64,000 nt of DNA from Rikenellaceae bacterium. GTDB taxonomy: Bacteria > Bacteroidota > Bacteroidia > Bacteroidales > Rikenellaceae. Positions 3,500 through 60,210 of the stretch are shown here, in pieces (position 1 is the first letter of the stretch; each line of letters begins with the position of its first letter). The DNA lies in NCBI GenBank assembly GCA_045613745.1, contig JAZLBP010000010.1:87136-151135 (forward strand), in the 5' to 3' direction. Under the pieces are notes generated by a model. The model did no database searches, had not been told where the DNA came from, and saw only the letters and a program-made list of their open reading frames with translations. Made by a program: the position numbers and the translations under genes.

Positions 3500-4525
3500 C
3501 TAAATATCAATTGGCACGGGATCGTCGTAGAGATGTTGGTCTGTATGAAGAATCTTCGCTCCACCGTATCGCTCCACCGCGTAGTAGAATTCATTATAGT
3601 GGTTTGACTCCACACCGTGACAGAGTTCGTGCACGATTACTGCGTCAACTTGCAGAGGTGTGCATTTCATCAGGTGCATCGAGAGGTCAATATGCTTGTC
3701 TTCGGGGTAAAAGCAACCAAGCGTTGAGGTGCCGCGCGAGATATGGCAATATGAGTAGCCAAGGCCGATGCGCTCCGAGATAGTTTTAAGTCGTTGGGGA
3801 AGATACTCCTCGGCGGCTAATTTCATTAGTTTTAGGCCATATCGGATAATCGCCTCGCGCGAAATGCGCTCCTCAAAACGAATCGTGCTCGGAGCAATAA
3901 TTGTGTAGCGCATACCCTCGCGTCGGTAACTAAACGTATTATCGCCTCCTCGCTCTAAACGGAGTTGAAAGAGAGGATAGTCACGGCTGAGTGTTTCGTC
4001 GAGTACCTCAGGCAGATGGCTTTGACACTCTGCGCGTTTCTGCTCACGCACTTGTAAATCATTCCACAGCCACGCAACAGCCATATCATAGGGTCGCTCT
4101 TTGTCGATGGTCACCTCGGCATAATCCTCTTGGATGCGGCAACTATACACTCCACCCCTCTTGATTTTCACACGCCCTATGCCCCACACACGCATCTCGT
4201 CGGGCGTGGGTTGCGGTTGCGGTTTTTCGGCCTCCAAGTTGTCAGCGAGTGTCTTAATCCATTCGCCGTTTGGGTCTTTATAGCGCAACCCAAGCACCGC
4301 TAAACGATACCACTTCAGGGCAGTATAGGAGTCTTGAACGACCCCACGTCCGTTATTGTGCGCCCAACCCAACCAAGCAGCCACAACAGGTCGCATCTGA
4401 AATCTGTAAATTGATTCATATAGTGACCGATACAGCAAGGCAACAGCCTCACTATCGTGCATCTTGTCGGCCCGAAAGAGGTCAACGGCCCGCTGGAAAT
4501 ATGATTTCGGGTTGTTCATCTTCAA
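3500..4525 (-). CDS. YgjP/DUF45-type (M48-like) zinc metallopeptidase with an N-terminal Sel1-like repeat region
   Basis: C-terminal VHELCHGVESNHYNEFYY (HExxH...H) in a DUF45-like context. The N-terminal AAWLGWAHNNGRGVVQDSYTALKWYRLA resembles a Sel1 repeat. Confidence 0.7.
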   Translation of the reverse strand: MKMNNPKSYFQRAVDLFRADKMHDSEAVALLYRSLYESIYRFQMRPVVAAWLGWAHNNGRGVVQDSYTALKWYRLAVLGLRYKDPNGEWIKTLADNLEAEKPQPQPTPDEMRVWGIGRVKIKRGGVYSCRIQEDYAEVTIDKERPYDMAVAWLWNDLQVREQKRAECQSHLPEVLDETLSRDYPLFQLRLERGGDNTFSYRREGMRYTIIAPSTIRFEERISREAIIRYGLKLMKLAAEEYLPQRLKTISERIGLGYSYCHISRGTSTLGCFYPEDKHIDLSMHLMKCTPLQVDAVIVHELCHGVESNHYNEFYYAVERYGGAKILHTDQHLYDDPVPIDI

Positions 4526-7738: not shown

Positions 7739-8368
7739 ATGGCAAAAGTTAAGAACCTGCTGTTCGACCTCGGCGGAGTGCTGGTCGATTTGTGGTTGGA
7801 GAAGTGCTTGAAGGCATTTCACGACCTCGGCTTCGAGGGTATTGACAACGAGCTGCTCAACCCCTACCACACCGACGGAATGTTTGGCAACAGCGAGCTG
7901 GGTCTGGTGTCGGAGGATGAACTGCGCAACTATGTGCGCGAGCAGGCGGGAAACCCGAGTATCACCGACAAGCAAATTGACGACGCCTACTATGAGTTCA
8001 TCGGCGAGATTCCCGAGTACAAGCTCCAAATGCTGGCCGAGCTCAAAAAACACTATAATATCTATATGCTGAGCAACACCAGCTCGTTTGTATATCCCCG
8101 CATCGCGCGCCAGGAGTTTACCAAACTGGGCGCAACGGTGGAGGATTACTTCGACGGCATCTACTTGTCGTATGAGTTGCATTTGGCCAAGCCCGACCCC
8201 AAGGTGTTTGAGCACATTTTGGAGGACGCAGGCATCCGCGCCGAGGAGACTCTGTTCTTCGATGATAGTCAGGTAAACCTTGACGCAGCAGCAGAGCTCG
8301 GCTTCCAAACCTATCTGGTTGATGTGCAAGAGGATTTCCGCCACGTATTTGAGGAGTTGGAAAAATAG
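7739..8368 (+). CDS. HAD-superfamily hydrolase (subfamily IA-like)
   Basis: LLFDLGGVLVDL motif I and FFDDSQVNLDAA motif IV. Starts 9 nt after the SDR. Confidence 0.8.
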   Translation: MAKVKNLLFDLGGVLVDLWLEKCLKAFHDLGFEGIDNELLNPYHTDGMFGNSELGLVSEDELRNYVREQAGNPSITDKQIDDAYYEFIGEIPEYKLQMLAELKKHYNIYMLSNTSSFVYPRIARQEFTKLGATVEDYFDGIYLSYELHLAKPDPKVFEHILEDAGIRAEETLFFDDSQVNLDAAAELGFQTYLVDVQEDFRHVFEELEK

Positions 8369-45670: not shown

Positions 45671-45964
45671 ATGAATTTCGAGGGATTAATCGCAGGAGTC
45701 TGCACGTTTCTTATAATCGGATTGTTTCACCCCATTGTCATCAAAGCGGAGTACTATTGGGGCGTGCGTTGTTGGTGGATTTTTCTGCTTGCGGGCATAG
45801 GAGCCGCTGTGGCTTCGTTGTTGGTCGAAAGTCTTATGATTTCGACACTGCTGGGTGTGTTTGCCTTCTCATCGTTTTGGAGCATTCACGAACTCTTTGA
45901 GCAGCGCGAACGTGTGCGCAAAGGGTGGTTCCCCAAAAATCCCAAACGCAAGGAACGCAGTTAA
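45671..45964 (+). CDS. Small membrane protein (DUF4491-like)
   Basis: 97 aa with 3 TM segments. The family name is from memory. Confidence 0.55.
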   Translation: MNFEGLIAGVCTFLIIGLFHPIVIKAEYYWGVRCWWIFLLAGIGAAVASLLVESLMISTLLGVFAFSSFWSIHELFEQRERVRKGWFPKNPKRKERS

Positions 45965-47328
45965 TCACGCAGTCGAAGCACCATTGCAAGGTCGCGTTCG
46001 GGCTCTCCTGTACCGAGGTCAAAGGTTGAGTGGGCGCCCGTAAAGCACTCTTCGCCAAGGCGGTCGCCACCACGCGAGCCAAACGACATCGCAAAGCGCT
46101 CGTCGGCAAATCCAAACTTCGCATACAGCGCTCGCAGACTCTCGTCAGCAGGAATCACACACACGGCATCGAACTCGCCACCCCACCCCTCGCGGACTTT
46201 GGTAAGCGCGTCAGTTATAACCCTGCGTGCGAGGCCGCGACCACGAAACGACTCATCCACCGCCACGGCATAGAGATAGGCAGTGCGTCCGAGGTCGGTA
46301 GTGAGCGGCACGATGTGCGCCATAGCCACAACTTGCCCCTCCTCGCTGTGGGTAAAGCATAGTTGCGGATCGTAGAAACGTGCCAGAAAGCTATCAACCC
46401 ACGCAGGTTGGTCGCCAAACACACGGCACCACAGCGCGCGAACTCCTCGCAAGTGGTCGTCAAGTTGCAGGGCGGTATATTTGCGAAGTAACATCGCGGG
46501 ACGGTACGACAACTTGGCACGGCGCAGGCCCTCGATACCCAAATCTTCCTCGCGATTGATGTAGCGTATAGTGTCGGGAAGTTGAAGCGCCATCATCCGA
46601 TTGACCACGGCATAGGCTCCGTCGAAGTTGGTGTCGGCCTTCTCGCAATGGACGCAAAAAGTGTCATCGGTGAGTTGTGAGCCAAAGGTAAAAGCCACCA
46701 CGCGGCCATCCACTCGCAGCACCACTCCTCGCAAATCTAACTCCGCAAAGCAGTGCAACTTACGGCGCAAGGCAAGGGCCTCGGCTGCATCAGTTGAGCC
46801 GCGTCGGAGGCGCCACTCGGCATCCACCGAAAGGCACTCCTCGATGTTGTCGGAGGTCAGCGGCTCGACAGTATAATTATAGCGACTCTCGAAGCGCGCA
46901 ATGTGGTTGCGTTTGGTCTTGAAACCACTGCCCGAAAGTTGCGCCAACTCGTCGCGGTGATAGATGTAGTCGCACGCATCGCGGTTGCAATCCACTGCCC
47001 AGCAGTCGGCGTCAAGCTGTTCCACACCACTACCATCCAACATCAGTCGCAGGGGTTGTCCCTCGCGTCGGGCATCCTCGGCCAAGAGCGGCACAAGGGG
47101 CATAAAATCGGCACTTCCCAGAGGTTGCATATAGGCAGTGCGAGGCAGGCCATCGATGCGGTATTTGAGAACTAGCCACTCACCCAGCTCAGCCACACGG
47201 CTGTCGAAGAGGTGCAGCCAGCCGAAAATGTTGGCAAACGACAGGTCGCAGCTACGCACGCCTGCCGCACTCACTCGGTTCTCAATCAGCGCCTTATGAC
47301 GCATCTCTATCTCTTTAAAACTCAACAT
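45961..47328 (-). CDS. DUF2156 (MprF C-terminal-like) domain fused to a GNAT acetyltransferase
   Basis: The N-terminal FANIFGW... region is DUF2156-like. The C-terminal AVAVDESFRGRGLARRV is GNAT motif A. Confidence 0.7.
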   Translation of the reverse strand: MLSFKEIEMRHKALIENRVSAAGVRSCDLSFANIFGWLHLFDSRVAELGEWLVLKYRIDGLPRTAYMQPLGSADFMPLVPLLAEDARREGQPLRLMLDGSGVEQLDADCWAVDCNRDACDYIYHRDELAQLSGSGFKTKRNHIARFESRYNYTVEPLTSDNIEECLSVDAEWRLRRGSTDAAEALALRRKLHCFAELDLRGVVLRVDGRVVAFTFGSQLTDDTFCVHCEKADTNFDGAYAVVNRMMALQLPDTIRYINREEDLGIEGLRRAKLSYRPAMLLRKYTALQLDDHLRGVRALWCRVFGDQPAWVDSFLARFYDPQLCFTHSEEGQVVAMAHIVPLTTDLGRTAYLYAVAVDESFRGRGLARRVITDALTKVREGWGGEFDAVCVIPADESLRALYAKFGFADERFAMSFGSRGGDRLGEECFTGAHSTFDLGTGEPERDLAMVLRLRD

Positions 47329-52129: not shown

Positions 52130-52137
52130 TATCTTTG
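52130..52137 (+). promoter_or_regulatory. -7 box TATCTTTG upstream of the orphan lipoprotein
   Basis: TAnnTTTG match 33 nt upstream of the ATG at 52171. Confidence 0.45.
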
Positions 52138-52170
52138 CGCTCCCAAACAAGCAAAAAAAAGAACACAGAT

Positions 52171-53841
52171 ATGAAAAACAACAAATTCAGCAAAGCGATT
52201 TTGAGCCTTCTGCTCGGCGCAATGGTAGCACTCGCAGGCTGCGGCAACGGAGAGTCTATAATTACCAACGTGGGAAGCGACAACGGAGATTTTGGCGACA
52301 ACGACCTCTATCAAATGAGTGTAAGACCCGTGGGACTTGATATGAAAGGAGTCAAGGGTTTTGCCGTGTTGGGCAACCACGACGTCACGAGAGCAGATAT
52401 GGAGTCGGGCAACGGAGAGATTGATGAGGAGGTGAATGACGAGGTCATCCAAGAGCCCATCAATATTCCTGCGCCCTACTCGCTGTATAGTATCAACGAG
52501 AATAACGAAATCAGCCTCTCGGTGTTCTATTTCGAGGCAACCACCACCAACCAAGGTCTGCAAGAGATTATCGAAAACGAGTTAAAAGGCGTCATTCAAG
52601 TTGTGCCCTCGCTGCTGACCGACCTCGGCAAATACATTCTGTTCTCGGGTTGCCAATTCCATGTTTGCAAGGCAGGCCTTTCGGATGAGTTGCAACAGAT
52701 TTGCGATGCGATTATCGAGAATCAACGATTAAAGTATAACGGTTACAACCAAGAGTACCTGCTTCGCAAGTCCGACGGCGCGCTGTTCGATATCACCGAG
52801 CAAGAACTCTTCACATTCTATACCAATACTGCCTATGGTGGAGTTTCGTTTGAAGTTACAAGCAGCAAATGGAGCTCCTCGCTCGAAGCGATTGTTCCTA
52901 ACTCATACTTTATCCACAAAGACAATATCTATGTGATGACTCCTCTCTGCGTCCTTCAAAAACTCGAGGATAATGGTGATGCCATAGATGTATCGAGAGT
53001 TACCCAAGGGGGACTTTGTCGAACCGCACTCCTCGACAAAGATGATAACATCTTTGCTCTGATGGAAGATGGATTGCATATCTATCGTGCCGAAGGTGGA
53101 TTCAATATCCTCTACTTTGGTAATGGCGAGGAGCTTGTCAGTCTGGGAAAAGATAACCAAGGCAATGCATATCTCTTCACCAAAGAGTATAACAATGGCT
53201 TTATGGTAACCTCGTTGGCTAATGGTAATCCTCAAAAGATTTTCACCTCGGGCAAAGAGTTTTGGGATGAATACCACCCTCAATACGGACATCTCGAACT
53301 CTGTCATCAATACCTCACCTATGGCCCCAAAGACAGCGCTTATGGCGACAGTGGCTTCTCTTACTCGTTAGGTTACAACAATGGCACTTTTAGGTGGTTC
53401 TTTGGATATGAAGATTTCTTGACCTCGGATTATAGTGTCTACGTACCATACATAGTGCAGTATGTACCCGCCAAAAACGAAGTCGAGTTCGTAGAGATAC
53501 CCGCCAATGTCAAGGCCGCGCTTGAAGATCAATATGACTATATGGCATTAGGTGCAATTTGTTACGGCATCAAGGTTGATGGCATCAATATCGAAGTTAC
53601 CAAGATTGATATCTCTAACGAGGCTGTCACCACTAACTCCTTCGTGGTAGAGCCCATCTCGTCAATCGTAGGTCGCAAATACCAAATAGCGCAGTTTGCC
53701 ACCCCCACCCTCTATGTGTCGGGACGCAACAACATCAATGGTGCCCCTGCGATGGTTTCGATTAACCTGCTCACGGGCGACAACAGCGCATCGTTCGCAG
53801 GCGACGCTCGCAGCGTAGTAACCCTGCTGCGCATCAACTAA
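52171..53841 (+). CDS. Orphan lipoprotein, unknown function (lower GC than flanking genes)
   Basis: MKNNKFSKAILSLLLGAMVALAGC lipobox. 556 aa and beta-rich, with no family recognised. By-eye GC is about 38-47% over most of the gene, against about 55-60% in neighbours. Confidence 0.7.
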   Translation: MKNNKFSKAILSLLLGAMVALAGCGNGESIITNVGSDNGDFGDNDLYQMSVRPVGLDMKGVKGFAVLGNHDVTRADMESGNGEIDEEVNDEVIQEPINIPAPYSLYSINENNEISLSVFYFEATTTNQGLQEIIENELKGVIQVVPSLLTDLGKYILFSGCQFHVCKAGLSDELQQICDAIIENQRLKYNGYNQEYLLRKSDGALFDITEQELFTFYTNTAYGGVSFEVTSSKWSSSLEAIVPNSYFIHKDNIYVMTPLCVLQKLEDNGDAIDVSRVTQGGLCRTALLDKDDNIFALMEDGLHIYRAEGGFNILYFGNGEELVSLGKDNQGNAYLFTKEYNNGFMVTSLANGNPQKIFTSGKEFWDEYHPQYGHLELCHQYLTYGPKDSAYGDSGFSYSLGYNNGTFRWFFGYEDFLTSDYSVYVPYIVQYVPAKNEVEFVEIPANVKAALEDQYDYMALGAICYGIKVDGINIEVTKIDISNEAVTTNSFVVEPISSIVGRKYQIAQFATPTLYVSGRNNINGAPAMVSINLLTGDNSASFAGDARSVVTLLRIN

Positions 53842-53983: not shown

Positions 53984-54016
53984 CCATAATTGGGAAGAAG
54001 TGAAATCCTACCGAGT

Positions 54017-55381
54017 ATGAAAAAGAATCACGTTTTATTGAGCCTGATTGTCGCAACGGCGGTCAGCCTGATTGTAAATTTCGCCTATCTGCTCTCTATC
54101 TGGGTTGTTAACGACAACAACACAGCCAGCGACGAGAAACCGCGTCCCGAAATCACCTTTGAGGGCGTGGCACACATCAATGCCGACGGCTATGGCTACA
54201 TCCTGACCACAGTCGTAGATGAGAGTGCATTGGAGGAGGCCGAGAGCGCCGAAGACACACTCCGCCCGAGCCTCGTTCAACATAGTTTCGACTCGGTGTA
54301 CATTTCGAGCAACCGCGCCCACCGTTTGGGAGTGCGCGATGGTATGACCATTACGGGTACTGCCGAGCCCGCACGACGCCCCGATGCGCGACCTGTGCTG
54401 ATGCGAATCGACACCATCAACGGCGAGGAGTTCGATTACTCGGCTCTGTTCAAACGCCCCGATGACAATCTGCTGGCAGCCATTCAGGTGGGATTCTATC
54501 TGCTGGTAGCATTCTTGATGTGTCTGATTTTCACACACAACACACAGGGCAATCAACGCAAACACATTGACTTCTTCACTCGTCTGGGATTGTGTGTCGT
54601 GGTGGCTGCTGTGGCCTTCCTGCTGGCACCCGTTGTGGAGCGCTACTCGGGCGAGATTCGCCTCAACATAATGAGCTATAATACGTTCAATCCGATGGTG
54701 ATGTTGCAGTGTACATTTGCGCTTGTGGTGTGTGCGCTGTATGGCCTGACTTGGAGGATGATGGTTCATCAGAGCGCCATCAGCGTCGAGATGGAACGAT
54801 TGAAAGGCGAGGCTTTGGCGGCACGTTACGATGTGCTGGTGGGACAAATCAACCCCCACTTCCTGTTTAACTCGCTCAACTCGCTGTCGATGTTGGTGCG
54901 CGAGGGCAACACCGAGGGTGCACTCAAATACATCGACCAACTCTCCTACACCTTCCGCTATACCATCCGTCCCGACGGCCGAAATATGGTATCGCTGGAA
55001 GAGGAGCTCAAATTCCTGAACGCCTATCGCCACCTTTTGGAAGTGCGCTATGCCGACAAACTCTTCTTTGACATCCGCATCGACGAGGCTATGCGCGAGT
55101 GGTTAATGCCCGCGCTGTCGTTGCAGCCGCTGGTGGAGAATGCTGTCAAACACAACAGCATTACCTCGGCCTGCCCGCTCACAATATCAATCTACACCGA
55201 GGGTGACAACCTTGTCATCAGCAATCCCATCGTGCCCAAGCTCACAAGCGAGGAGAGCACCGGCATCGGTCTGCACAACCTGACCGACCGCTGGTCGATG
55301 TTGGTGGGTCGCCGCGTCGAGGTATCGAAGGATGGCGGCGTGTTCCGCGTTGTGTTACCCCTAATTCACGAAGCACGATGA
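54017..55381 (+). CDS. LytS/YehU-type sensor histidine kinase with a Rho-N-terminal-like OB domain in the first extracytoplasmic loop
   Basis: GQINPHFLFNSLNS (His_kinase PF06580-type H-box) and LQPLVENAVKH. There are 4 predicted TM segments. Residues about 45-138 (counted from the ATG at 54017) resemble the Rho RNA-binding domain. Confidence 0.85.
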   Translation: MKKNHVLLSLIVATAVSLIVNFAYLLSIWVVNDNNTASDEKPRPEITFEGVAHINADGYGYILTTVVDESALEEAESAEDTLRPSLVQHSFDSVYISSNRAHRLGVRDGMTITGTAEPARRPDARPVLMRIDTINGEEFDYSALFKRPDDNLLAAIQVGFYLLVAFLMCLIFTHNTQGNQRKHIDFFTRLGLCVVVAAVAFLLAPVVERYSGEIRLNIMSYNTFNPMVMLQCTFALVVCALYGLTWRMMVHQSAISVEMERLKGEALAARYDVLVGQINPHFLFNSLNSLSMLVREGNTEGALKYIDQLSYTFRYTIRPDGRNMVSLEEELKFLNAYRHLLEVRYADKLFFDIRIDEAMREWLMPALSLQPLVENAVKHNSITSACPLTISIYTEGDNLVISNPIVPKLTSEESTGIGLHNLTDRWSMLVGRRVEVSKDGGVFRVVLPLIHEAR

Positions 55382-56127
55382 GAGCAGTAATCATTGAGGA
55401 CGAAACCGCAGCAGCTCGCAACCTACAAGCGCTGTTGCAAAGTGTGGTGCCCGACATCGAAATCTGCGCCACCCTCGAAAGCATTGCCGAGAGCGTGCAG
55501 TGGCTGAATGCCAACCCCCAACCCGATGTGCTGTTTATGGATATTCACCTGGCCGATGGCGATTCGTTCAGGATCTTCGACTTGGTTAGCATTGAGTGTC
55601 CCATAATCTTTACCACCGCCTACGACCAATATGCACTCAAAGCGTTCAGCGTAAACAGCATCGACTATCTGCTCAAACCGATTGCCCAGAGCGACCTGGA
55701 GCGTGCAGTGACCAAACTCCGCAGGCTTACCCCCTCGGAGCGCACGGAGATGCGTCGCAAAATCGACCGCGTGGTGGAGGAGGAACGTCCGCGCTCGTTC
55801 TTGGTACAGGTCAAGGATCGTATCATTCCGTTGAAGATAGAGGAGGTGGCCTACTTCTACACCTGCGCCGAAAAGGTGTGGGCTTACACCGACGAGGGCC
55901 GTACCTATATAATAAATCGCACACTCGACAAACTCTCGGCACAACTTCCACCCGAGGAGTTCTTCCGTGCCAACCGTCAGTTTATAGTTGCGCGCCGAGC
56001 AGTGCGAGATATTTCGGTGTGGTTTGGCAGCCGCGTAGCAGTCAATGTTATGCCCGAAGCACCCGAAAGAATCGTGGTCAGTAAGGAGCGCAGCGGCGAA
56101 TTCAAGCGCTGGCTCGCACAAGGATAG
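55378..56127 (+). CDS. LytTR-family response regulator
   Basis: The REC domain has IIEDE and FMDIHLADG. A C-terminal LytTR DNA-binding domain is present. 4-nt overlap with the kinase gene. Confidence 0.88.
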   Translation: MRAVIIEDETAAARNLQALLQSVVPDIEICATLESIAESVQWLNANPQPDVLFMDIHLADGDSFRIFDLVSIECPIIFTTAYDQYALKAFSVNSIDYLLKPIAQSDLERAVTKLRRLTPSERTEMRRKIDRVVEEERPRSFLVQVKDRIIPLKIEEVAYFYTCAEKVWAYTDEGRTYIINRTLDKLSAQLPPEEFFRANRQFIVARRAVRDISVWFGSRVAVNVMPEAPERIVVSKERSGEFKRWLAQG

Positions 56128-56417
56128 TTCCGTTCAAACCGCCATTTGGTCGGTTCACCGCCCAAAAATTCCGTTTCACCCGACACAGTGTATGTGTCGG
56201 GTTTTTTATTACTAATTTTGTTCTCAGAAAAAGCAACCAAACACAATTCCAAACAATGAAACGCTTATACCAAATAGTACGATGCACGGCCACGGGGCTG
56301 ACGACGACGCAAACGCGCCGCTAATCCCCGCACACTCCGTATCCCCGTCCAACCCTCGGGTCGGACACAACAACATCACACATTATTTAGTATAACACAC
56401 AAAAAACACAAGAAACT

Positions 56418-57041
56418 ATGAAAAAGATTGTAATGGCGGCAATGGCATTGGTAGTAATCCTCTCCGCATCGGTTGTAAACGCTAACGCACAAATGCGACA
56501 CCTGTCGCCCGAACAAATAGCCGAGATTCGCTCGGATCGTATGGCTCGTGAACTGCACCTCAGCGCAGCACAATACGCAAAACTGTATAAACTCAACCTC
56601 CGAGAGGCTCGTCGAATGGATCGCCACGGCGCATACTTCTTCGACTGCGAGGATTACAGATGCGACCTGCTCCGAATCATTGGCGATATTAATTACAGAT
56701 TGTACGAATCGATGGTGCACAACCACCGCAAAAACCACAGAGGACACCTGCACGCACAAGCGCCACACGTTGCGCCTCACGTTGCGCCTCACGCAGTGCA
56801 TCATCAAGCACACGTAGCGCCACACGTTGCACCGCACGCGAAACCCCACGTCGAGGCTCACAAAGCACACGTAAAGCCTCACGCGGAGCCCCACGCAAAA
56901 CCTCACGCAGCGCCCGCTCCTAACAAGGGTGGCGCAAGCAAACCCGAGGTAGGCAAGCCCGGTGCAGGTAAACCCGAGGCAGGCAAACCCGGTGGTGGCA
57001 ATGGCGGACCCCAAAATCGTCCCCAATTCAGAATGAAGTAA
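56418..57041 (+). CDS. Secreted His-rich repeat protein with a Spy/CpxP/ZraP-like (LTxxQ-type) N-terminal region
   Basis: Signal peptide MKKIVMAAMALVVILSASVVNANAQ. The helical region contains LSPEQIAEI and LSAAQYAKL. It is followed by (A/K)PH(V/A) tetrapeptide repeats and then a GKP-rich tail. Confidence 0.75.
   Translation: MKKIVMAAMALVVILSASVVNANAQMRHLSPEQIAEIRSDRMARELHLSAAQYAKLYKLNLREARRMDRHGAYFFDCEDYRCDLLRIIGDINYRLYESMVHNHRKNHRGHLHAQAPHVAPHVAPHAVHHQAHVAPHVAPHAKPHVEAHKAHVKPHAEPHAKPHAAPAPNKGGASKPEVGKPGAGKPEAGKPGGGNGGPQNRPQFRMK
56718..56909 (+). repeat. In-frame 12-nt periodic coding repeat (His-x-x-Pro type tetrapeptides)
   Basis: HNHRKNHRGHLHAQAPHVAPHVAPHAVHHQAHVAPHVAPHAKPHVEAHKAHVKPHAEPHAKPH. 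I count 19 His in 64 residues. Confidence 0.8.
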
Positions 57042-57213: not shown

Positions 57214-60210
57214 ATGAAAAAGATTTTCTTGACACTTATCTTCGCCGCGACAACGCTGATTGCTGTGGCTCAAAGCGGTAGCATTACCGGTAGAATCATT
57301 GACTCCACAACAAGCGAGGCAATCCTCGGTGCTGTGGTTGAGGTGGTTAATGCAAAGGACTCATCAAGCGTCAAAGTTGTGGCTTCGGGCCTCGAAGGAC
57401 GCTTCTCGACTTCGGGAGTGCCCTCGGGTGACTATATGCTGAGAGTAAGATACCTCGGCTACAAATCGCCCGACCTGCAATTCAAGGTCGAAAAGGGCAA
57501 AGCCGAGCTGGGCGATGTAAAACTCGTTCAGGGTATTGCCATCGAGACCGTTGTCAAGGAGGTTGAGGCACTGCGTACCACCCAGAATGGCGACACGCTG
57601 ATTTATAATGCCGACGCGTTCAAGGTAGCCCAAGACGCAACCGTCGAGGGTCTGCTCAAAAAGATGCCCGGTGTTGAGGTGTCGGATGGCGAGGTAAAAG
57701 CACAAGGCGAGACCATCAAGAAGATTCTGGTGGATGGCAAGGAGTTCTATGGCGAGGATGTCAAGAGTGCTATTTCGACCCTGCCTGCCGAGGCTGTCAA
57801 GAACATCGAGGTATTCAACAAGTTGAGCGACAACGCCGAGTTTACCAAACAGGACGACGGCGAGAGCTATAAGGCTATCAATATCGTAACAAAAATCAAC
57901 GTCCGCAAAGGTCAATATGGCCAATTCTCGGGATTGTATGCCCTCGGACTCGGCGCCCAAAACAAGTGGGAGAACTACTTTATGGGCGGTGGTTACATCA
58001 ACATCAACAACAATGACGCCCGTATCAGCATCAATGGTATGGCCAACAATATGAACGTTCGTCGTTACAACGAGAACGACCTGCTGGGTGCTGTGACTGC
58101 AAGCGGCGGTAGCGGTGGTGTGGCCCACACCGCCAACATCGGCGCCAACTATAGCGACACTTGGGGCAAAAAGGATCAGGTTGAGTTCTCGGGTAGCTAT
58201 GGCTTCAACATCAGCAACACCAACAACGAGCGCATTACCGACCGCGACTACTTCTCGGACTCGGTGACTCAAAACCTTTACAGCAAACTCTATCAGGTAA
58301 ATACCTCTACGTCGCGCAACTACAACCACAACCTGAACGCCAACATCCGAGCTAAATTTGGCCAAAAGGCTCAACTGCGCGTACGCCCCTCGTTCGGCTA
58401 TCAATACAACTCGTCGGCAGGTGCAACAACTTCGACCTACACCCCGACTCAAAGTGTTGACAGGTTGGTACAAGAGATTCTCAACAGCCACAACAACCGA
58501 CTCAGCTCGGGTTGGAACTCGGGATTGAACGTGAACTACAACCAAAAAATCACCGACAAACCCGGCCGCGCGCTGAACGTGAACTTCAACGGCTCGTACT
58601 CGCGCAACAATGGCGATGGCAACTCGCTGTCGCAAACCGAAAACCTGCCCGACAGCGTAGGTATGGACTCGCCGCTGTATGGCGACTTCTTCAAGAACCA
58701 AGATTGGTTGCAAAACTCCTACAATTACAGCATTCGCGGAGGCGCGACCTACACCGAGCCTTTGAGCAAGGAGATGTCGCTGAGCGTGAACTACGAAGTG
58801 CAATATCGCTACTCGGATGCCGACAAGAAGACCTACTTGGGTGAGTGGAATCCCACCGACTCGACTTGGACTTATATGGTTGATTTCGATCCGCAATACT
58901 CGAACACCCAAAACAGCGGCTACCTGATTAACCGCATTGGCCCCGGCTTCAACTACTCGAAGAGCGGTACCAACATCAACCTGCGTGTGTACTACCAAAA
59001 CGCAGTATTGAGTGGCGAGCGTCAATTCCCCCAAGAGGTGCACTTCTCGCCCCGTTCGTTCAACGATGTGACCTACTCGGCAAACTTCCGCATCAAGATC
59101 GACAACACCAATAGCGTCCGCATCCGCGTAAACTCATCGACCTCGAACCCCTCGATTACCAACCTGCAAGATGTTGTGGACATCTCGAACGTACAAGCAG
59201 TGAGCTGCGGTAACTCGGCGCTCAAACCCTCGTACTCGCACAATATGTTCACGCACTACATCCGCTCGAACATCGAGAAAGGTCGTACATTTATGATTGG
59301 TGGAGGTTTCAACATCACTCAAAACAGTATCGTAAACCAAGTGATTCGCAACTCGCCCGGCTACGAAGTTAAAGACCCCATCACAGGTCAGCCTCTGGCC
59401 AAACTGTCGAGCACCGCAACCTTCTCGTCGCCCATCAATATGGATGGCAACTGGAGTGTGAACGGTATGATTAGCTATGGTATGCCGTTGTCGTTTATGA
59501 AGTGCAACCTCAACATGTCGGCCAACGTAAGCTACCGCCAATCGCCCACCGTAACCGGTGTGATGACCGATGCGGCAACCCAACACGTTGAGTACACAAC
59601 CAATATTTCGAAAAACCTCAGTCCCGGCGGTAACATTACCATCGGTAGCAACATCAGCGAAAATGTGGACTTCTTTGTAGGTTATCGCGCCAACTACAAC
59701 CACGTTCGCAACACCTTCAACCTGAGAAACAACAACGACTACCTGAGCCACTCGGCGTGGGGTAATGTCAAGGTTATTCTGCCGCTCGGATTCACCATTG
59801 CGTCGGATGTCACCTACACCCAAAACTTCGGCTTGAAGGGCAGTGACTTTGATGTAGCCTACACAATGTGGAATATCAGCATTGGTAAGAAAATCTTCCG
59901 CAACAATCGTGGCGAGGTCAACCTGTTTATGAACGACATCCTCGACCAAAACCGCAGTTTCCAACGTCAATGGAACTCGCTCTATATGCAGAACGTAACC
60001 AACACTTCGATTGGTCGTTACGTTGGTATCAGCCTGACCTACAACCTGCGTAACTACGGCAGCAAAGAGGAGCGCGAAAATATGCGCGGCAACTTTGAGA
60101 GTCTGCGTGACGGACGTCCCGAAGGTATGCCCGCGCCTCCCGCAGGAATGATGCGTGGCGGTTTCGGCGGACCTCCTCCCGGAGGCTTCGGCGGCGGTCG
60201 TCCGATGTAA
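57214..60210 (+). CDS. Outer-membrane beta-barrel protein with an N-terminal CarboxypepD_reg-like domain and plug-like region (TonB-dependent-receptor-like)
   Basis: Signal peptide, then GSITGRIIDSTTSEAILGAVVEV. 998 aa with alternating beta-strand patterns and the C-terminal tail ...GMPAPPAGMMRGGFGGPPPGGFGGGRPM. Confidence 0.8.
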   Translation: MKKIFLTLIFAATTLIAVAQSGSITGRIIDSTTSEAILGAVVEVVNAKDSSSVKVVASGLEGRFSTSGVPSGDYMLRVRYLGYKSPDLQFKVEKGKAELGDVKLVQGIAIETVVKEVEALRTTQNGDTLIYNADAFKVAQDATVEGLLKKMPGVEVSDGEVKAQGETIKKILVDGKEFYGEDVKSAISTLPAEAVKNIEVFNKLSDNAEFTKQDDGESYKAINIVTKINVRKGQYGQFSGLYALGLGAQNKWENYFMGGGYININNNDARISINGMANNMNVRRYNENDLLGAVTASGGSGGVAHTANIGANYSDTWGKKDQVEFSGSYGFNISNTNNERITDRDYFSDSVTQNLYSKLYQVNTSTSRNYNHNLNANIRAKFGQKAQLRVRPSFGYQYNSSAGATTSTYTPTQSVDRLVQEILNSHNNRLSSGWNSGLNVNYNQKITDKPGRALNVNFNGSYSRNNGDGNSLSQTENLPDSVGMDSPLYGDFFKNQDWLQNSYNYSIRGGATYTEPLSKEMSLSVNYEVQYRYSDADKKTYLGEWNPTDSTWTYMVDFDPQYSNTQNSGYLINRIGPGFNYSKSGTNINLRVYYQNAVLSGERQFPQEVHFSPRSFNDVTYSANFRIKIDNTNSVRIRVNSSTSNPSITNLQDVVDISNVQAVSCGNSALKPSYSHNMFTHYIRSNIEKGRTFMIGGGFNITQNSIVNQVIRNSPGYEVKDPITGQPLAKLSSTATFSSPINMDGNWSVNGMISYGMPLSFMKCNLNMSANVSYRQSPTVTGVMTDAATQHVEYTTNISKNLSPGGNITIGSNISENVDFFVGYRANYNHVRNTFNLRNNNDYLSHSAWGNVKVILPLGFTIASDVTYTQNFGLKGSDFDVAYTMWNISIGKKIFRNNRGEVNLFMNDILDQNRSFQRQWNSLYMQNVTNTSIGRYVGISLTYNLRNYGSKEERENMRGNFESLRDGRPEGMPAPPAGMMRGGFGGPPPGGFGGGRPM

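What the first reader, a model, noticed from the sequence alone, without database searches (positions are those of the whole stretch)
54017..55381. LytS-type histidine kinase with a predicted periplasmic domain resembling the Rho N-terminal (cold-shock-like OB) RNA-binding domain
The kinase core is ordinary (H-box GQINPHFLFNSLNS, partnered with a LytTR regulator that overlaps by 4 nt). Between TM1 (LLSLIVATAVSLIVNFAYLLSIWVV) and TM2 lies the segment 54149-54430. It reads ITFEGVAHINADGYGYILT...[acidic insert]...FDSVYISSNRAHRLGVRDGMTITGTAEPARRPDARPVLMRIDTINGEEF. This parallels the E. coli Rho primary RNA-binding domain: GVLEILQDGFGFLR...[44 protein letters not shown]. Shared positions are GV..I..DG[FY]G[FY][IL], D.[IV]Y[IV]S, R..[LV]R.G.TI[ST]G, P...R...L.[KR][IV]..[IV]N. 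The positive-inside rule (N-terminus MKKNH; a basic loop after TM2; four TM segments before the cytoplasmic kinase) places this OB-like module outside the cytoplasm. A Rho-type OB fold used as an extracytoplasmic sensor is not an architecture I know. It could bind extracellular nucleic acid, oligosaccharide or another polyanion.
Basis: partly seen in the sequence, partly recalled or inferred. Interest (0 to 1): 0.65.

Follow-up and report, generated by a model that had tools for sequence, protein, structure and literature searches.

The report
Sensor kinase with periplasmic Rho-like domain
A gut-bacterial (Rikenellaceae/Alistipes) membrane sensor kinase carries, on its predicted outward-facing loop, a real copy of the RNA-binding module of the transcription terminator Rho, a sensor type I found described in no paper, and it appears to switch on a neighbouring envelope chaperone and outer-membrane barrel.

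Summary
ORF 54017-55381 is a LytS-type histidine kinase (PF06580). A LytTR regulator overlaps it by 4 nt. Residues 46-139 are a true homologue of the Rho primary RNA-binding OB domain. They pass Pfam's PF07497 cut-off. A 16-sequence family profile hits E. coli Rho at E=6e-12. The AlphaFold model's 50 listed best PDB matches are all Rho.

Four hydrophobic helices and charge statistics over the query plus 120 homologues place the OB domain in the periplasm. The family has one architecture and is essentially confined to Rikenellaceae/Alistipes. Its members are named only "histidine kinase", and I found no paper on it.

Beyond the finding, the kinase-regulator pair is always followed by a Spy/CpxP-like periplasmic protein (DUF4890, with a Cys/His-rich tail) and a CarboxypepD_reg/OMP_b-brl_3 outer-membrane barrel. 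A conserved LytTR-type operator precedes them: 9-bp repeats CGnTTSACC in 21-bp phase, 32-33 nt upstream of a TAnnTTTG box.

The domain keeps Rho's exposed aromatic platform (DG[Y/H]GY and Y95). It has lost the base-reading residues, and in this window it is strongly acidic. The ligand is unknown. I favour an envelope signal over nucleic acid. This is a new variant of a known kind.

The parts
54017..55381 (+). Sensor histidine kinase gene (454 aa, LytS/YehU type)
   Evidence: ORF. PF06580 at E=1e-21 plus PF07497 at 29.9 bits. 4824 homologues were found; the 120 listed are 431-534 aa and cover 94-100% of the query.
54032..54106 (+). TM1 (residues 6-30), with the family-invariant motif N21-F22-x-Y24-x-L26
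   Evidence: Hydropathy peak at residues 10-28. N21, F22, Y24 and L26 are invariant in 25 diverse members. The motif [AG][VI]S[LVM][IV][VA]NF[AS]Y retrieved the family from genomes.
54152..54433 (+). Rho-type OB domain (residues 46-139), predicted periplasmic
   Evidence: PF07497 above its cut-off. Family profile against PDB Rho at E=5.9e-12. AF2 model pLDDT 83, with strands at model residues 3-11, 17-21, 50-53, 68-74 and 84-91. The 50 listed best Foldseek PDB hits are all Rho. DG[Y/H]GY, DSVY and the RR-x-G-A-H-P segment are conserved.
54209..54286 (+). Acidic, low-confidence insert in the loop after the DGYGY hairpin (residues about 65-90)
   Evidence: Present only in the window, P0001 and P0002. 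Other lineages carry unrelated inserts at the same loop. pLDDT is 47-55 there.
54419..54460 (+). Conserved motif next to the membrane, NGxEFDYxxLFxRP (residues 135-148), before TM2
   Evidence: G136 is invariant. Y141 is nearly invariant in A2. F145, R147 and P148 are invariant in A3. A short helix at residues 141-144 appears in the full-length model.
54464..54760 (+). TM2-TM4 bundle (residues 150-248), with a basic cytoplasmic TM2-3 loop and a short periplasmic beta-hairpin in the TM3-4 loop
   Evidence: Hydropathy. AF2 helices at 150-173, 182-203 and 226-276, and strands at 205-207 and 214-216. The TM2-3 loop is net +3.3 over the query plus 120 homologues.
54821..55366 (+). Cytoplasmic kinase core: His_kinase (H281 in NPHF) and a GHKL-type ATPase (ENAVKHN, GIGL)
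   Evidence: PF06580 over residues 269-349. HATPase_c is weak (E=0.16) over residues 369-449.
55378..56127 (+). LytTR-type response regulator, overlapping the kinase stop by 4 nt
   Evidence: PF00072 at E=3e-12 and PF04397 at E=3e-18. BtsR and LytR are the best NCBIfam matches, both below their cut-offs. It sits next to the kinase in all 80 loci where it could be seen.
56130..56180 (+). Predicted LytTR operator: CGGTTCACC (56151-56159) and CGTTTCACC (56172-56180), 21 bp start-to-start, plus a degenerate copy at 56130-56138
   Evidence: It is the only match in the 64-kb window; 0.06 are expected. The same repeats are conserved in relatives. The strict pattern gives 57 sites in 45 of 80 loci, all just after the regulator gene and none elsewhere in 1.8 Mb. 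The degenerate copy is my reading of the sequence.
56178..56208 (+). Hairpin plus T-run (possible terminator of the kinase-regulator unit) between operator and promoter box
   Evidence: A 10-nt perfect inverted repeat at 56178-56187 / 56193-56202, followed by TTTTTT. The hairpin is degenerate in L004, so its role is uncertain.
56213..56220 (+). TAATTTTG, a Bacteroidota-type -7 promoter box (TAnnTTTG)
   Evidence: Sequence. A TAnnTTTG box lies 32-33 nt after the proximal repeat in 38 of 46 sequences, and 54-55 nt (one more 21-bp phase) in the other 8.
56418..57041 (+). DUF4890 periplasmic protein (Spy/CpxP/ZraP-like) with a His-rich tail; predicted target of the regulator
   Evidence: PF16231 at E=2.4e-4. 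Weak CpxP hit. The ortholog profile hits Spy (3oeo) at E=0.001. LTXXQ matches 4 of 18 orthologs and Metal_resist 3 of 18. Orthologs have Cys/His-rich tails.
57214..60210 (+). Outer-membrane beta-barrel protein (CarboxypepD_reg + OMP_b-brl_3); predicted target of the regulator
   Evidence: Pfam. It lies downstream of the kinase-regulator pair in every locus long enough to show it.

Best explanation
This is a lineage-specific two-component system of Rikenellaceae, a family of gut Bacteroidales. Its input module is a Rho-type OB domain displayed in the periplasm.

**Shown here**
- The loop between TM1 and TM2 is homologous to the Rho primary RNA-binding domain and is predicted to fold like it.
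- The kinase core is of the LytS type, and the partner is a LytTR regulator.
- The gene pair is invariably followed by an outer-membrane barrel. In most loci a Spy/CpxP-like periplasmic protein lies in between.
- Those genes are preceded by phased 9-bp repeats at a fixed distance from a promoter box.

**Inferred**
- The OB domain is held close to the membrane by short linkers. It binds a ligand in the cleft that corresponds to Rho's RNA site. The exposed aromatic residues are kept there (Y or H at 59, Y61, Y95), together with R103 and an RR-x-G-A-H-P loop.
- Binding shifts TM1 and TM2 within the four-helix bundle. The shift travels along TM4 into the H-box and sets autophosphorylation of H281.
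- The phosphorylated LytTR regulator binds the repeats at 56130-56180 and activates the DUF4890/barrel operon.

**What is sensed**
- The circuit looks like the Cpx, Bae and Zra envelope-stress systems: a kinase, a regulator and a Spy/CpxP/ZraP-type periplasmic protein.
- I therefore think the most likely signal is an envelope-derived cue. Candidates are a periplasmic protein or peptide, possibly the DUF4890 protein itself as a feedback partner, or a metal or cation load.
- I think free nucleic acid is less likely.

**Rough probabilities**

| Claim | Probability |
|---|---|
| Homology to the Rho OB domain | about 0.97 |
| Periplasmic location | about 0.9 |
| Regulator drives the DUF4890/barrel operon through the repeats | about 0.8 |
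| Signal is an envelope or metal cue rather than nucleic acid or glycan | about 0.45 |
For: **Homology and fold**
- PF07497 scores 29.9 and 35.2 bits against a cut-off of 27, and no other OB family matches.
- The family profile hits Rho at E=5.9e-12 in register with Rho residues 49-120.
- The AF2 domain model has pLDDT 83. The 50 listed best Foldseek PDB hits are all Rho, with best E=5e-6 and TM-score 0.59 normalised to the query.

**Topology**
- There are four hydropathy peaks.
- The full-length model shows TM1 at 2-37, the OB domain at 46-134, TM2 at 150-173, TM3 at 182-203, and TM4 from 226 running continuously to the H-box.
- Charge statistics over the query plus 120 homologues agree with this orientation.

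**Cleft conservation (121 sequences)**

| Rho residue | Kinase family |
|---|---|
| F62 | H in 77, Y in 42 |
| F64 | Y in 121 |
| Y80 | Y in 120 |
| R88 | R in 112 |
| D60-G61 | invariant |

**Circuit**
- The gene order kinase, regulator, (DUF4890), barrel is conserved.
- The operator occurs once in the window, against 0.06 expected.
- The strict pattern gives 57 sites in 45 of 80 loci. All lie within -30 to +300 of the regulator's stop codon, and none lies elsewhere in 1.8 Mb.
- The -7 box sits 32-33 nt downstream of the proximal repeat in 38 of 46 sequences.
- From established knowledge: LytTR regulators such as AgrA and ComE bind pairs of 9-bp direct repeats separated by 12 bp. That is the same 21-bp phasing.

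**Envelope-stress reading**
- The DUF4890 ortholog profile hits Spy at E=0.001.
- Some orthologs match the LTXXQ and Metal_resist families.
- There is a weak CpxP match.
- Nearly all orthologs carry Cys- or His-rich C-terminal tails.
Against: - No experiment supports the topology, the ligand or the regulon.
- About a dozen of the 80 loci have no DUF4890 gene between regulator and barrel. The OB domain therefore cannot depend on that protein everywhere.
- The histidines that could suggest metal binding are common in Alistipes but absent from the window's own protein: H59 (77 of 121), H122 (70) and H125 (108) are Y59, P122 and R125 here.
- The kept aromatic platform also fits nucleotide or sugar stacking.
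- The barrel could be an uptake channel. That would make this a nutrient-sensing circuit rather than a stress circuit.
- The Spy/CpxP similarity of DUF4890 is weak. The window's own copy scores below Pfam's cut-off (22 bits against 29.7).
- The hairpin between operator and -7 box could be only a terminator, and the repeats could serve another protein.
Confidence: 0.6

Rival explanations
1. **Extracellular or periplasmic nucleic-acid sensor.** The OB domain still binds single-stranded RNA or DNA, oligonucleotides or nucleotides by stacking bases on Y59, Y61 and Y95, as Rho does. The system would switch on an outer-membrane channel when such molecules appear.
For: - The domain is a true Rho RNA-binding domain homologue.
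- The RNP1-like motif DGFGF is kept as DG[Y/H]GY, with D, G, G and Y invariant or nearly so. Y80 and R88 are also kept.
- A conserved RR pair lies in the loop that corresponds to Rho residues 105-106.
- The output includes an outer-membrane barrel that could be a transporter.
Against: - The residues that read the cytosine in Rho are replaced: R66 becomes V/I/L, D78 becomes S, R109 becomes A/G, and Y110 becomes H/N/R. That R66 and D78 read the base is established knowledge of Rho-RNA structures.
- The window's loop carries 12 K+R against 23 D+E, with an acidic insert next to the cleft.
- The co-regulated periplasmic protein resembles a chaperone or metal-stress factor, not a nuclease or a nucleoside-uptake component.
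- No nuclease or nucleoside transporter is linked to the module.
Confidence: 0.2
2. **Carbohydrate (oligosaccharide) sensor for nutrient uptake.** Exposed Tyr and His residues stack on sugar rings. The barrel would be the importer induced by its substrate, as in Bacteroidota polysaccharide-utilisation regulation.
For: - OB folds bind oligosaccharides in other proteins (established knowledge).
- A conserved Tyr/His platform with arginines is present.
- The output gene has the N-terminal CarboxypepD_reg domain. That domain is typical of Bacteroidota TonB-dependent transporters (established knowledge).
Against: - No SusD-like gene, glycoside hydrolase or other glycan-utilisation gene is consistently linked. 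The flanking genes differ between lineages.
- No Plug or TonB_dep_Rec family matched the barrel protein.
- The partner gene is Spy/CpxP-like.
Confidence: 0.12
3. **The OB domain is a structural relic.** It would act as a spacer or dimerisation element with no ligand. Signals would be sensed in the membrane by the four-helix bundle, for example through the invariant TM1 motif NF-x-Y.
For: - TM1 is unusually conserved: N21, F22, Y24 and L26 are invariant.
- Many LytS-type kinases sense through membrane domains (established knowledge).
- Long, variable, low-confidence inserts are tolerated in one OB loop.
Against: - Solvent-exposed aromatic and basic positions of the former RNA cleft are among the most conserved residues of the whole protein.
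- That pattern is hard to explain without a binding partner.
Confidence: 0.07
4. **The segment is cytoplasmic, or the similarity to Rho is chance.**
For: No membrane-topology predictor or experiment was available here. The topology rests on hydropathy, charge bias and an AF2 model.
Against: - With four TM helices and a kinase that must be cytoplasmic, a cytoplasmic OB domain is topologically impossible. The charge bias agrees.
- Chance is excluded by E=5.9e-12 and by the Foldseek result.
Confidence: 0.03

Closest known systems
Primary RNA-binding (OB, cold-shock-like) domain of transcription terminator Rho (Pfam PF07497; PDB 1A62, 2A8V)
   Same: - Homologous sequence and predicted fold, in register with Rho residues 49-120.
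- The RNP1-like hairpin DGFGF is kept as DGYGY. The D-x-[IV]-Y-[IV]-S strand, the R-R-[FL] helix and the G-D/M-x-[IV] strand are also kept.
   Different: - There is no Rho_N domain and no RecA-type ATPase, and the protein is not a hexameric helicase.
- The domain lies between two TM helices and is predicted to be periplasmic.
- The base-reading residues R66, D78, R109 and Y110 are replaced.
- A family-specific tail, NGxEFDYxxLFxRP, links the domain to TM2.
LytS/LytR, BtsS/BtsR (YehU/YehT) and YpdA/YpdB: LytS-type kinases with LytTR regulators
   Same: - PF06580 H-box and a GHKL ATPase.
- An overlapping LytTR regulator gene.
- BtsR and LytR are the regulator's best NCBIfam matches.
   Different: - Those kinases sense through a 5TMR-LYT membrane domain, often with a GAF domain.
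- Here there is no 5TMR-LYT match. Instead there is a 1+3 TM arrangement with a large periplasmic OB domain.
- The regulator scores far below the equivalog cut-offs, so it is not an ortholog.
CpxA/CpxR/CpxP, ZraS/ZraR/ZraP and BaeSR/Spy envelope-stress circuits
   Same: - A kinase-regulator pair lies next to, and probably controls, a Spy/CpxP/ZraP-like periplasmic helical protein with LTxxQ-type motifs.
- The Cys/His-rich tails recall metal-binding ZraP.
   Different: - The kinase class differs (LytS type, not EnvZ or NtrB type). The regulator class differs (LytTR, not OmpR or NtrC).
- The sensor fold differs (OB, not PAS-like).
- An outer-membrane barrel is co-regulated.
- The similarity of DUF4890 to Spy is weak.
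AgrA/ComE-type LytTR operators
   Same: Two to three 9-bp direct repeats with 12-bp spacers lie directly upstream of the promoter. That architecture is established knowledge for AgrA, ComE and PlnC.
   Different: - The repeat sequence is CGnTTSACC.
- The promoter is of the Bacteroidota type (TAnnTTTG at -7).
- Binding has not been tested.
Periplasmic OB-fold (BOF) proteins such as YgiW/VisP, encoded next to the two-component system QseBC
   Same: An OB fold in the periplasm associated with two-component signalling. One V. cholerae example appeared in the literature search (PMC5636140, title and abstract only).
   Different: - Those are separate soluble proteins of a different OB family.
- Here the OB domain is of the Rho type and is fused into the kinase as its sensor loop.

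Membership tests
Rho_RNA_bind domain family (PF07497) | Score above Pfam's curated gathering cut-off (27 bits) | tested here: met
   29.9 bits in the whole protein and 35.2 bits for the domain alone. Most listed homologues carry PF07497 in precomputed annotation.
Rho_RNA_bind domain family (PF07497) | Five-stranded OB barrel with a helix between strands 3 and 4, superposable on the Rho N-terminal domain | tested here: met
   AF2 model pLDDT 83 with the expected strand and helix order. The 50 listed best Foldseek PDB hits are all Rho (E from 5e-6 to 6e-4, probability 1.00). This is a predicted structure only.
Rho_RNA_bind domain family (PF07497) | RNP1-like aromatic hairpin (DGFGF) and the Y80 platform | tested here: met
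   Of 121 sequences: D57 in 121, G58 in 121, position 59 is H in 77, Y in 42 and F in 2, G60 in 120, Y61 in 121, Y95 in 120.
Rho_RNA_bind domain family (PF07497) | Base-contacting residues of the Rho primary site (R66, D78, E108, R109, Y110) | tested here: not met
   R66 becomes V/I/L, D78 becomes S, E108 becomes G, R109 becomes A/G, and Y110 becomes H/N/R. RNA binding cannot be inferred from homology alone.
Transcription terminator Rho (the whole protein) | Rho_N domain plus OB domain plus RecA-type ATPase with Walker motifs | tested here: not met
   There is no PF07498 or PF00006 match. The rest of the protein is TM helices plus PF06580. Rho equivalog models score 17 bits against cut-offs of 315-509.
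LytS/YehU-type sensor histidine kinase | PF06580 His_kinase domain with the conserved His in N-P-H-F | tested here: met
   77.4 bits against a cut-off of 25.2, over residues 269-349. N279, P280, H281 and F282 are invariant.
LytS/YehU-type sensor histidine kinase | GHKL ATPase domain | tested here: inconclusive
   HATPase_c reaches only E=0.16. N-box-like ENAVKHN and G-box-like GIGL motifs are conserved in the alignment. I recall that such weak Pfam scores are usual for this kinase class; I did not test that.
LytS/YehU-type sensor histidine kinase | 5TMR-LYT membrane sensor domain | tested here: not met
   No PF07694 match. Only sub-threshold MASE4 and WLS-like TM hits appear. The protein has four TM helices in a 1+3 arrangement.
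LytS/YehU-type sensor histidine kinase | Adjacent cognate LytTR response regulator | tested here: met
   Response_reg + LytTR, overlapping the kinase by 4 nt. The pairing is conserved in all loci where it could be seen.
LytTR-regulated promoter | Pairs of 9-bp direct repeats with a 12-bp spacer, immediately upstream of the promoter | tested here: met
   Window site at 56151-56180, against 0.06 expected by chance. 57 sites in 45 of 80 loci, all after the regulator gene and none elsewhere. The distance to TAnnTTTG is fixed at 32-33 nt. Protein binding is not testable here.
Spy/CpxP/ZraP (LTXXQ) periplasmic proteins, for the DUF4890 gene | Significant profile match to LTXXQ/CpxP/Spy | tested here: inconclusive
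   The ortholog profile hits Spy (3oeo) at a whole-sequence E=0.001, but the single domain reaches only E=0.29. LTXXQ matches 4 of 18 and Metal_resist 3 of 18 orthologs. The window's copy hits CpxP at E=0.007 and DUF4890 below its cut-off.
Extracytoplasmic sensor domain of a histidine kinase | Location between two TM helices, on the opposite side of the membrane from the kinase | tested here: met
   Hydropathy, AF2 helices and charge bias. No dedicated topology predictor or experiment was available.

The most novel reading that the evidence does not exclude
The periplasmic Rho-type OB domain still binds single-stranded nucleic acid, or oligonucleotides released in the gut or by periplasmic nucleases. 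These Alistipes kinases would then be the first two-component receptors that sense extracellular nucleic acid directly. They would have been built by capturing the RNA-binding module of a housekeeping transcription factor, possibly the Bacteroidota rho gene itself. Bacteroidota Rho OB domains share the DGYG hairpin and an ING-x-x-P-D-Y tail that resembles the kinase's NG-x-E-F-D-Y.
Probability: 0.17. Interest if true: 0.85.

Novelty: new variant of a known kind. Interest (0 to 1): 0.6.

Why it matters
**A new kind of sensor fold.** Known extracytoplasmic sensor domains of histidine kinases are mostly PAS/Cache, four-helix-bundle, NIT, CHASE or periplasmic-binding-protein folds (established knowledge). 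A 2021 review of kinase sensor diversity does not mention OB folds at all.

**Rho's domain outside Rho.** The Rho RNA-binding domain is generally treated as diagnostic of Rho. A 2024 survey of 2730 genomes describes the Pfam model as specific. Here the same domain has been moved across the membrane and fixed in a whole bacterial family. That family includes Alistipes, an abundant human gut genus (established knowledge). So a cytoplasmic nucleic-acid-binding module can be re-used as an environmental receptor.

**A testable system.** The circuit is compact: one kinase, one regulator, one mapped operator and two output genes. That allows a direct search for the ligand.
- If the ligand is a nucleic acid, this would be a new sensory modality.
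- If it is an envelope or metal cue, it would define a Bacteroidota counterpart of the Cpx/Zra systems. To my knowledge those are poorly understood in this phylum.

Tried and rejected
**Searches and computations that led nowhere**
1. Chance or generic OB similarity was rejected. At E<=10 the isolated domain matches only PF07497, not CSD, S1 or OB_RNB.
2. The viral structure library gave only weak generic OB/CSD matches, with best E=2.6e-3.
3. The genome scan with the OB-only alignment A1 failed because no stretch was conserved enough. It was repeated with an N-terminal alignment. The pattern used was therefore the TM1 motif, so OB-containing kinases with a different TM1 would have been missed. 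The exhaustive profile search found no such kinases among its best 150.
4. PDB sequence searches gave nothing for the barrel protein and only noise for the single DUF4890 protein. The DUF4890 ortholog profile was needed to reach Spy.
5. The literature searches found no description of this architecture. The terms were Rho_RNA_bind plus histidine kinase; PF07497; OB-fold/LytTR; DUF4890; OMP_b-brl_3; Alistipes plus LytTR; and Rho RNA-binding domain plus sensor.

**Hypotheses considered and dropped**
6. The upstream 568-aa lipoprotein gene (52135-53841) was considered as part of the system and rejected. It has no family match. It is absent next to the kinase in all fetched loci.
7. Autoregulation through the same operator is not supported. 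No second site exists in the window.
8. Metal binding by a His cluster in the cleft was considered as the general mechanism. It was not adopted, because the histidines are absent from the window's own lineage.
9. The origin of the domain was explored but left open. Bacteroidota-type Rho OB domains are among the best-scoring Rho hits (about 52-58 bits). They do not score clearly better than those of other phyla.

**Routine checks**
- tRNA and Rfam scans of the window showed only three tRNAs.


Full report
**1. What is in the sequence**

ORF 54017-55381 (+) encodes a 454-aa protein. An alternative TTG start at 53990 would add nine residues, but homologues begin at the MKKNH-type N-terminus.

Pfam finds PF06580 His_kinase at E=1e-21 over residues 269-349. 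It also finds PF07497 Rho_RNA_bind over residues 82-138 at 29.9 bits, above the curated cut-off of 27. When residues 34-148 are scanned alone, PF07497 scores 35.2 bits. It is the only family reported even at E<=10, so the match is specific to Rho and not to cold-shock or S1 domains in general. NCBIfam's whole-Rho models match the same stretch weakly, far below their cut-offs. That is as expected for an isolated domain.

The next gene, 55378-56127, overlaps by 4 nt and encodes a Response_reg + LytTR regulator.

**2. Is the similarity to Rho real?**

A search of 5.8 billion proteins gave 4824 homologues. The 120 listed are 41-99% identical and cover 94-100% of the query. Nearly all are 431-467 aa. 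The majority carry the precomputed pair PF07497 + PF06580.

I aligned the loop from 16 diverse members (alignment A1). As a profile it hits the E. coli Rho RNA-binding domain (PDB 1a62) at E=5.9e-12, aligned to Rho residues 49-120. Every significant hit is a Rho structure.

AlphaFold2 on A1 gives a confident model (mean pLDDT 83, pTM 0.71). It has the OB strand order and a short helix after the third strand. Only the lineage-specific insert is of low confidence. In the Foldseek search of the PDB, the 50 listed best matches are all Rho chains. The best has E=5e-6, probability 1.00 and a TM-score of 0.59 normalised to the query. The disordered insert lowers that TM-score.

Homology to the Rho OB domain is therefore established as well as sequence and predicted structure allow.

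**3. Where is the domain?**

Hydropathy shows four strong peaks, at residues 10-28, 153-171, 190-208 and 227-245. The full-length AlphaFold2 model (alignment A2; model) has these elements:

| Element | Residues |
|---|---|
| TM1 helix | 2-37 |
| OB domain | 46-134 |
| Short helix | 141-144 |
| TM2 helix | 150-173 |
| TM3 helix | 182-203 |
| Small hairpin | 205-216 |
| TM4, continuous into the H-box region | 226-276 |

I measured charge bias over the query plus 120 homologues:

| Segment | Net charge |
|---|---|
| TM2-TM3 loop (3.5 K+R in 13 residues) | +3.3 |
| N-terminus | +0.9 |
| 15 residues before TM2 | -1.5 |

The kinase core must be cytoplasmic and there are four TM helices. The loop between TM1 and TM2 must therefore be periplasmic, and the charge bias agrees. 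This remains a prediction. No dedicated topology program or experiment was available.

**4. How widespread is it?**

A scan of one genome per GTDB species used the invariant TM1 motif as the search pattern. It gave 92 confirmed hits and kept the best 80. Nearly all of these are titled Rikenellaceae or Alistipes. A few are labelled only Bacteroidales, Bacteroidetes or uncultured bacterium.

An exhaustive HMMER search of 1.84 billion representative proteins with the OB profile found 2591 proteins at E<=0.001. Among the best 150, two groups dominate:
- kinase-type proteins with the same TM1 motif and the OB domain at residues about 50-135;
- ordinary Rho proteins or Rho fragments.

A handful of cytoplasmic non-Rho proteins make up the rest (section 10). 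A divergent kinase cluster, P0149, is still named Alistipes sp. by its source.

This is one family with one architecture. It occurs at one detected locus per species genome and is restricted to one bacterial family.

**5. What has changed relative to Rho?**

I used the register and counted residues in 121 kinases.

| Rho residue | Kinase family (of 121) |
|---|---|
| D60, G61, G63 | D in 121, G in 121, G in 120 |
| F62 | H in 77, Y in 42, F in 2 |
| F64 | Y in 121 |
| Y80 | Y in 120 |
| R88 | R in 112 |
| R66 | V, I or L |
| D78 | S in 120 |
| E108 | mostly G |
| R109 | A or G |
| Y110 | H in 108, otherwise N, R or K |

In Rho, F64 and Y80 stack on the two bases of the bound dinucleotide. R66 and D78 read the cytosine. 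This is established knowledge from the Rho-RNA crystal structures.

So the exposed aromatic platform and part of the basic rim are under strong selection. The base-specific contacts are gone. The conserved positions of the kinase domain fall in three segments: residues 57-61, 92-95 and 119-126. These are the three segments that build Rho's primary binding cleft. I infer that the cleft is still a binding site, now for a different or less specific ligand.

The window's own protein departs from the Alistipes majority. It has Y59, P122 and R125 instead of His. It also carries an acidic 25-residue insert next to the cleft. Its whole loop has 12 K+R against 23 D+E. That does not favour polyanion binding in this particular protein.

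**6. The circuit around it (new relative to the finding)**

In Alistipes finegoldii contigs, and in all fetched loci long enough to show it, the gene order is the same. The kinase and LytTR regulator come first. A small gene follows in most loci, and then a barrel protein of about 990 aa with CarboxypepD_reg + OMP_b-brl_3 domains. Upstream neighbours differ between lineages.

The small gene is DUF4890. Its orthologs have a signal peptide, two L-[ST]-x-x-Q-like motifs and C-terminal tails rich in Cys or His. Their profile reaches the periplasmic chaperone Spy (PDB 3oeo) at E=0.001. Individual members match Pfam LTXXQ (4 of 18) and Metal_resist (3 of 18). The window's copy weakly matches CpxP. 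About a dozen loci lack this gene, and there the barrel gene follows directly.

**7. A conserved LytTR-type promoter**

Just after the regulator's stop codon the window has two repeats, 21 bp start-to-start: CGGTTCACC at 56151-56159 and CGTTTCACC at 56172-56180. A degenerate third copy lies one phase upstream. The same repeats are conserved in the four closest relatives, although the surrounding sequence has diverged.

| Test | Result |
|---|---|
| Pattern in the 64-kb window | 1 match, against 0.06 expected |
| Strict pattern across 80 loci | 57 matches in 45 loci |
| Position of those matches | all within -30 to +300 of the regulator's stop, same strand |
| Matches elsewhere in 1.8 Mb | none |
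| Loci without a strict match | visibly degenerate copies |
| TAnnTTTG box after the proximal repeat | 32-33 nt in 38 of 46; 54-55 nt in the other 8 |

TAnnTTTG is the Bacteroidota -7 element (established knowledge). In the window it is at 56213-56220. Pairs of 9-bp direct repeats with 12-bp spacers just upstream of the promoter are the classical binding architecture of LytTR regulators such as AgrA and ComE (established knowledge).

I therefore infer that the regulator directly activates the DUF4890/barrel operon. Binding itself is untested.

A hairpin and T-run at 56178-56208 lie between operator and box. They may terminate the kinase-regulator transcript. The hairpin is not conserved in L004.

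**8. Most likely mechanism**

*Shown.* The kinase has a Rho-type OB domain in the predicted periplasmic loop. It has a LytS-type kinase core and a LytTR partner. The target operon and operator are conserved.

*Inferred.* A ligand binds in the former RNA cleft. Binding displaces TM1 and TM2 within a four-helix bundle. The invariant TM1 motif N21, F22, Y24 and L26 suggests tight helix packing. The change passes along TM4 to H281. The phosphorylated regulator then occupies the repeats and turns on the Spy-like protein and the barrel.

The output resembles the Cpx, Bae and Zra envelope-stress circuits. I therefore rank an envelope-derived cue first, at about 0.45. Candidates are a periplasmic protein or peptide, possibly DUF4890 itself as a feedback partner in the way CpxP acts on CpxA, or a metal or cation load. 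The remaining probability is spread as follows:

| Alternative | Probability |
|---|---|
| Nucleic acid or nucleotide sensing | about 0.2 |
| Glycan sensing | about 0.12 |
| A ligand-free structural role | about 0.07 |
| Wrong topology or chance similarity | about 0.03 |
| None of these | the remainder |

The ligand is the main unknown.

**9. Comparison with what is known, and novelty**

As a domain, the loop is a member of PF07497. Its score, fold and aromatic hairpin all meet the family's features. It fails the base-contact residues, so RNA binding cannot be carried over from Rho.

As a protein, it is not Rho. It is a LytS-type kinase that lacks the usual 5TMR-LYT sensor.

I found no paper that mentions this architecture. 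A 2024 survey of Rho diversity treats PF07497 as specific to Rho. A 2021 review of kinase sensor domains contains no mention of OB folds.

The domain pair is visible in automatic Pfam annotation of public proteins, which are named only "histidine kinase". I rate it a new variant of a known kind: a two-component system with an unprecedented, well-supported sensor fold.

I set interest at 0.6. The relocation of a Rho RNA-binding module to the periplasm would surprise specialists. The compact circuit also makes the ligand question directly testable. However, nothing yet shows a new sensory modality.

**10. Side observations**

- The Rho OB domain also occurs in cytoplasmic non-Rho proteins. Examples are ECF sigma factors with two C-terminal copies, Clp_N fusions and multi-OB proteins.
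- Bacteroidota Rho OB domains share the DGYG hairpin and an ING-x-x-P-D-Y tail that resembles the kinase's NG-x-E-F-D-Y. This hints at, but does not prove, capture from a Bacteroidota rho gene.
- A 22-codon ORF is conserved in the DUF4890 leader of the window's closest relatives.

Noticed in passing
window 56256-56324 (+); also L004 and L005, in the interval between regulator and DUF4890: A small ORF of 21-22 codons (MKRLYQIVRCTATGLTTTQTRR*) lies in the roughly 190-nt leader between the predicted promoter and the DUF4890 start. The reading frame is kept in L004 and L005 despite a 3-nt indel. L006 and L007 have shorter leaders and lack it. It could be a leader peptide, a small protein or simply a conserved RNA element.
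   Followed up: partly
window 56418-57041 (+), C-terminal half; orthologs in L001-L083: The DUF4890 protein of the window ends in a long His-rich repeat (HVAPHVAPHAVHHQAHVAPHVAPHAKPHVEAHKAHVKPH...). Alistipes orthologs instead end in Cys-rich tails (CPKDCPRKDCPRKK, CCDKPCPKK and others). Both suggest metal binding or redox chemistry in the periplasm, as in ZraP.
   Followed up: partly
window 60090-60210 (+), C-terminus of the barrel protein: The CarboxypepD_reg/OMP_b-brl_3 protein ends in a Gly/Pro/Met-rich, low-complexity tail (…GMPAPPAGMMRGGFGGPPPGGFGGGRPM). To my knowledge this is unusual for an outer-membrane barrel, whose last residues normally form the final strand.
   Followed up: no
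proteins P0145, P0148, P0164, P0259, P0161, P0150, P0178, P0226: The Rho RNA-binding domain (PF07497) occurs in other non-Rho proteins. These are ECF sigma factors with two C-terminal copies, some of which also carry Clp_N and a bifunctional-nuclease domain; a two-copy protein with a C-terminal Sigma70_r4_2 domain; and proteins with three or four copies. None has a predicted TM helix, so they are probably cytoplasmic.
   Followed up: partly
L004 about 8050-8130 and L005 about 3560-3640 (just after the regulator stop): Tandem heptamer repeats (AATTCAC, about 5-6 copies) are followed by an inverted partial copy (ATTGTGCATTGTGA). They were inserted between the regulator gene and the operator in the two closest relatives and are absent from the window. 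The TTCAC core resembles the operator half-site.
   Followed up: no
window 52135-53841 (+): A 568-aa predicted lipoprotein (signal peptide ending in LAGC) has no match in Pfam or NCBIfam. It sits directly upstream of the kinase. It is not found next to the kinase in any fetched relative, so it is probably unrelated to the system.
   Followed up: partly
window 45961-47328 (-): A 455-aa protein combines an LPG_synthase_C domain (the C-terminal domain of phosphatidylglycerol lysyltransferase) with a GNAT acetyltransferase domain. It was not checked for the membrane flippase part of MprF. It is a soluble-looking variant next to a class A penicillin-binding protein gene.
   Followed up: no
Bacteroidota-type Rho fragments (e.g. 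P0158, P0165, P0171, P0181): Bacteroidota Rho OB domains read DGYGF and end in ING-R-x-P-D-[YF]. This resembles the kinase family's DGYGY and NG-x-E-F-D-Y more than E. coli Rho does (DGFGF, VNFDKPEN). It hints that the kinase domain was captured from a Bacteroidota rho gene. Bit scores do not separate phyla clearly.
   Followed up: partly
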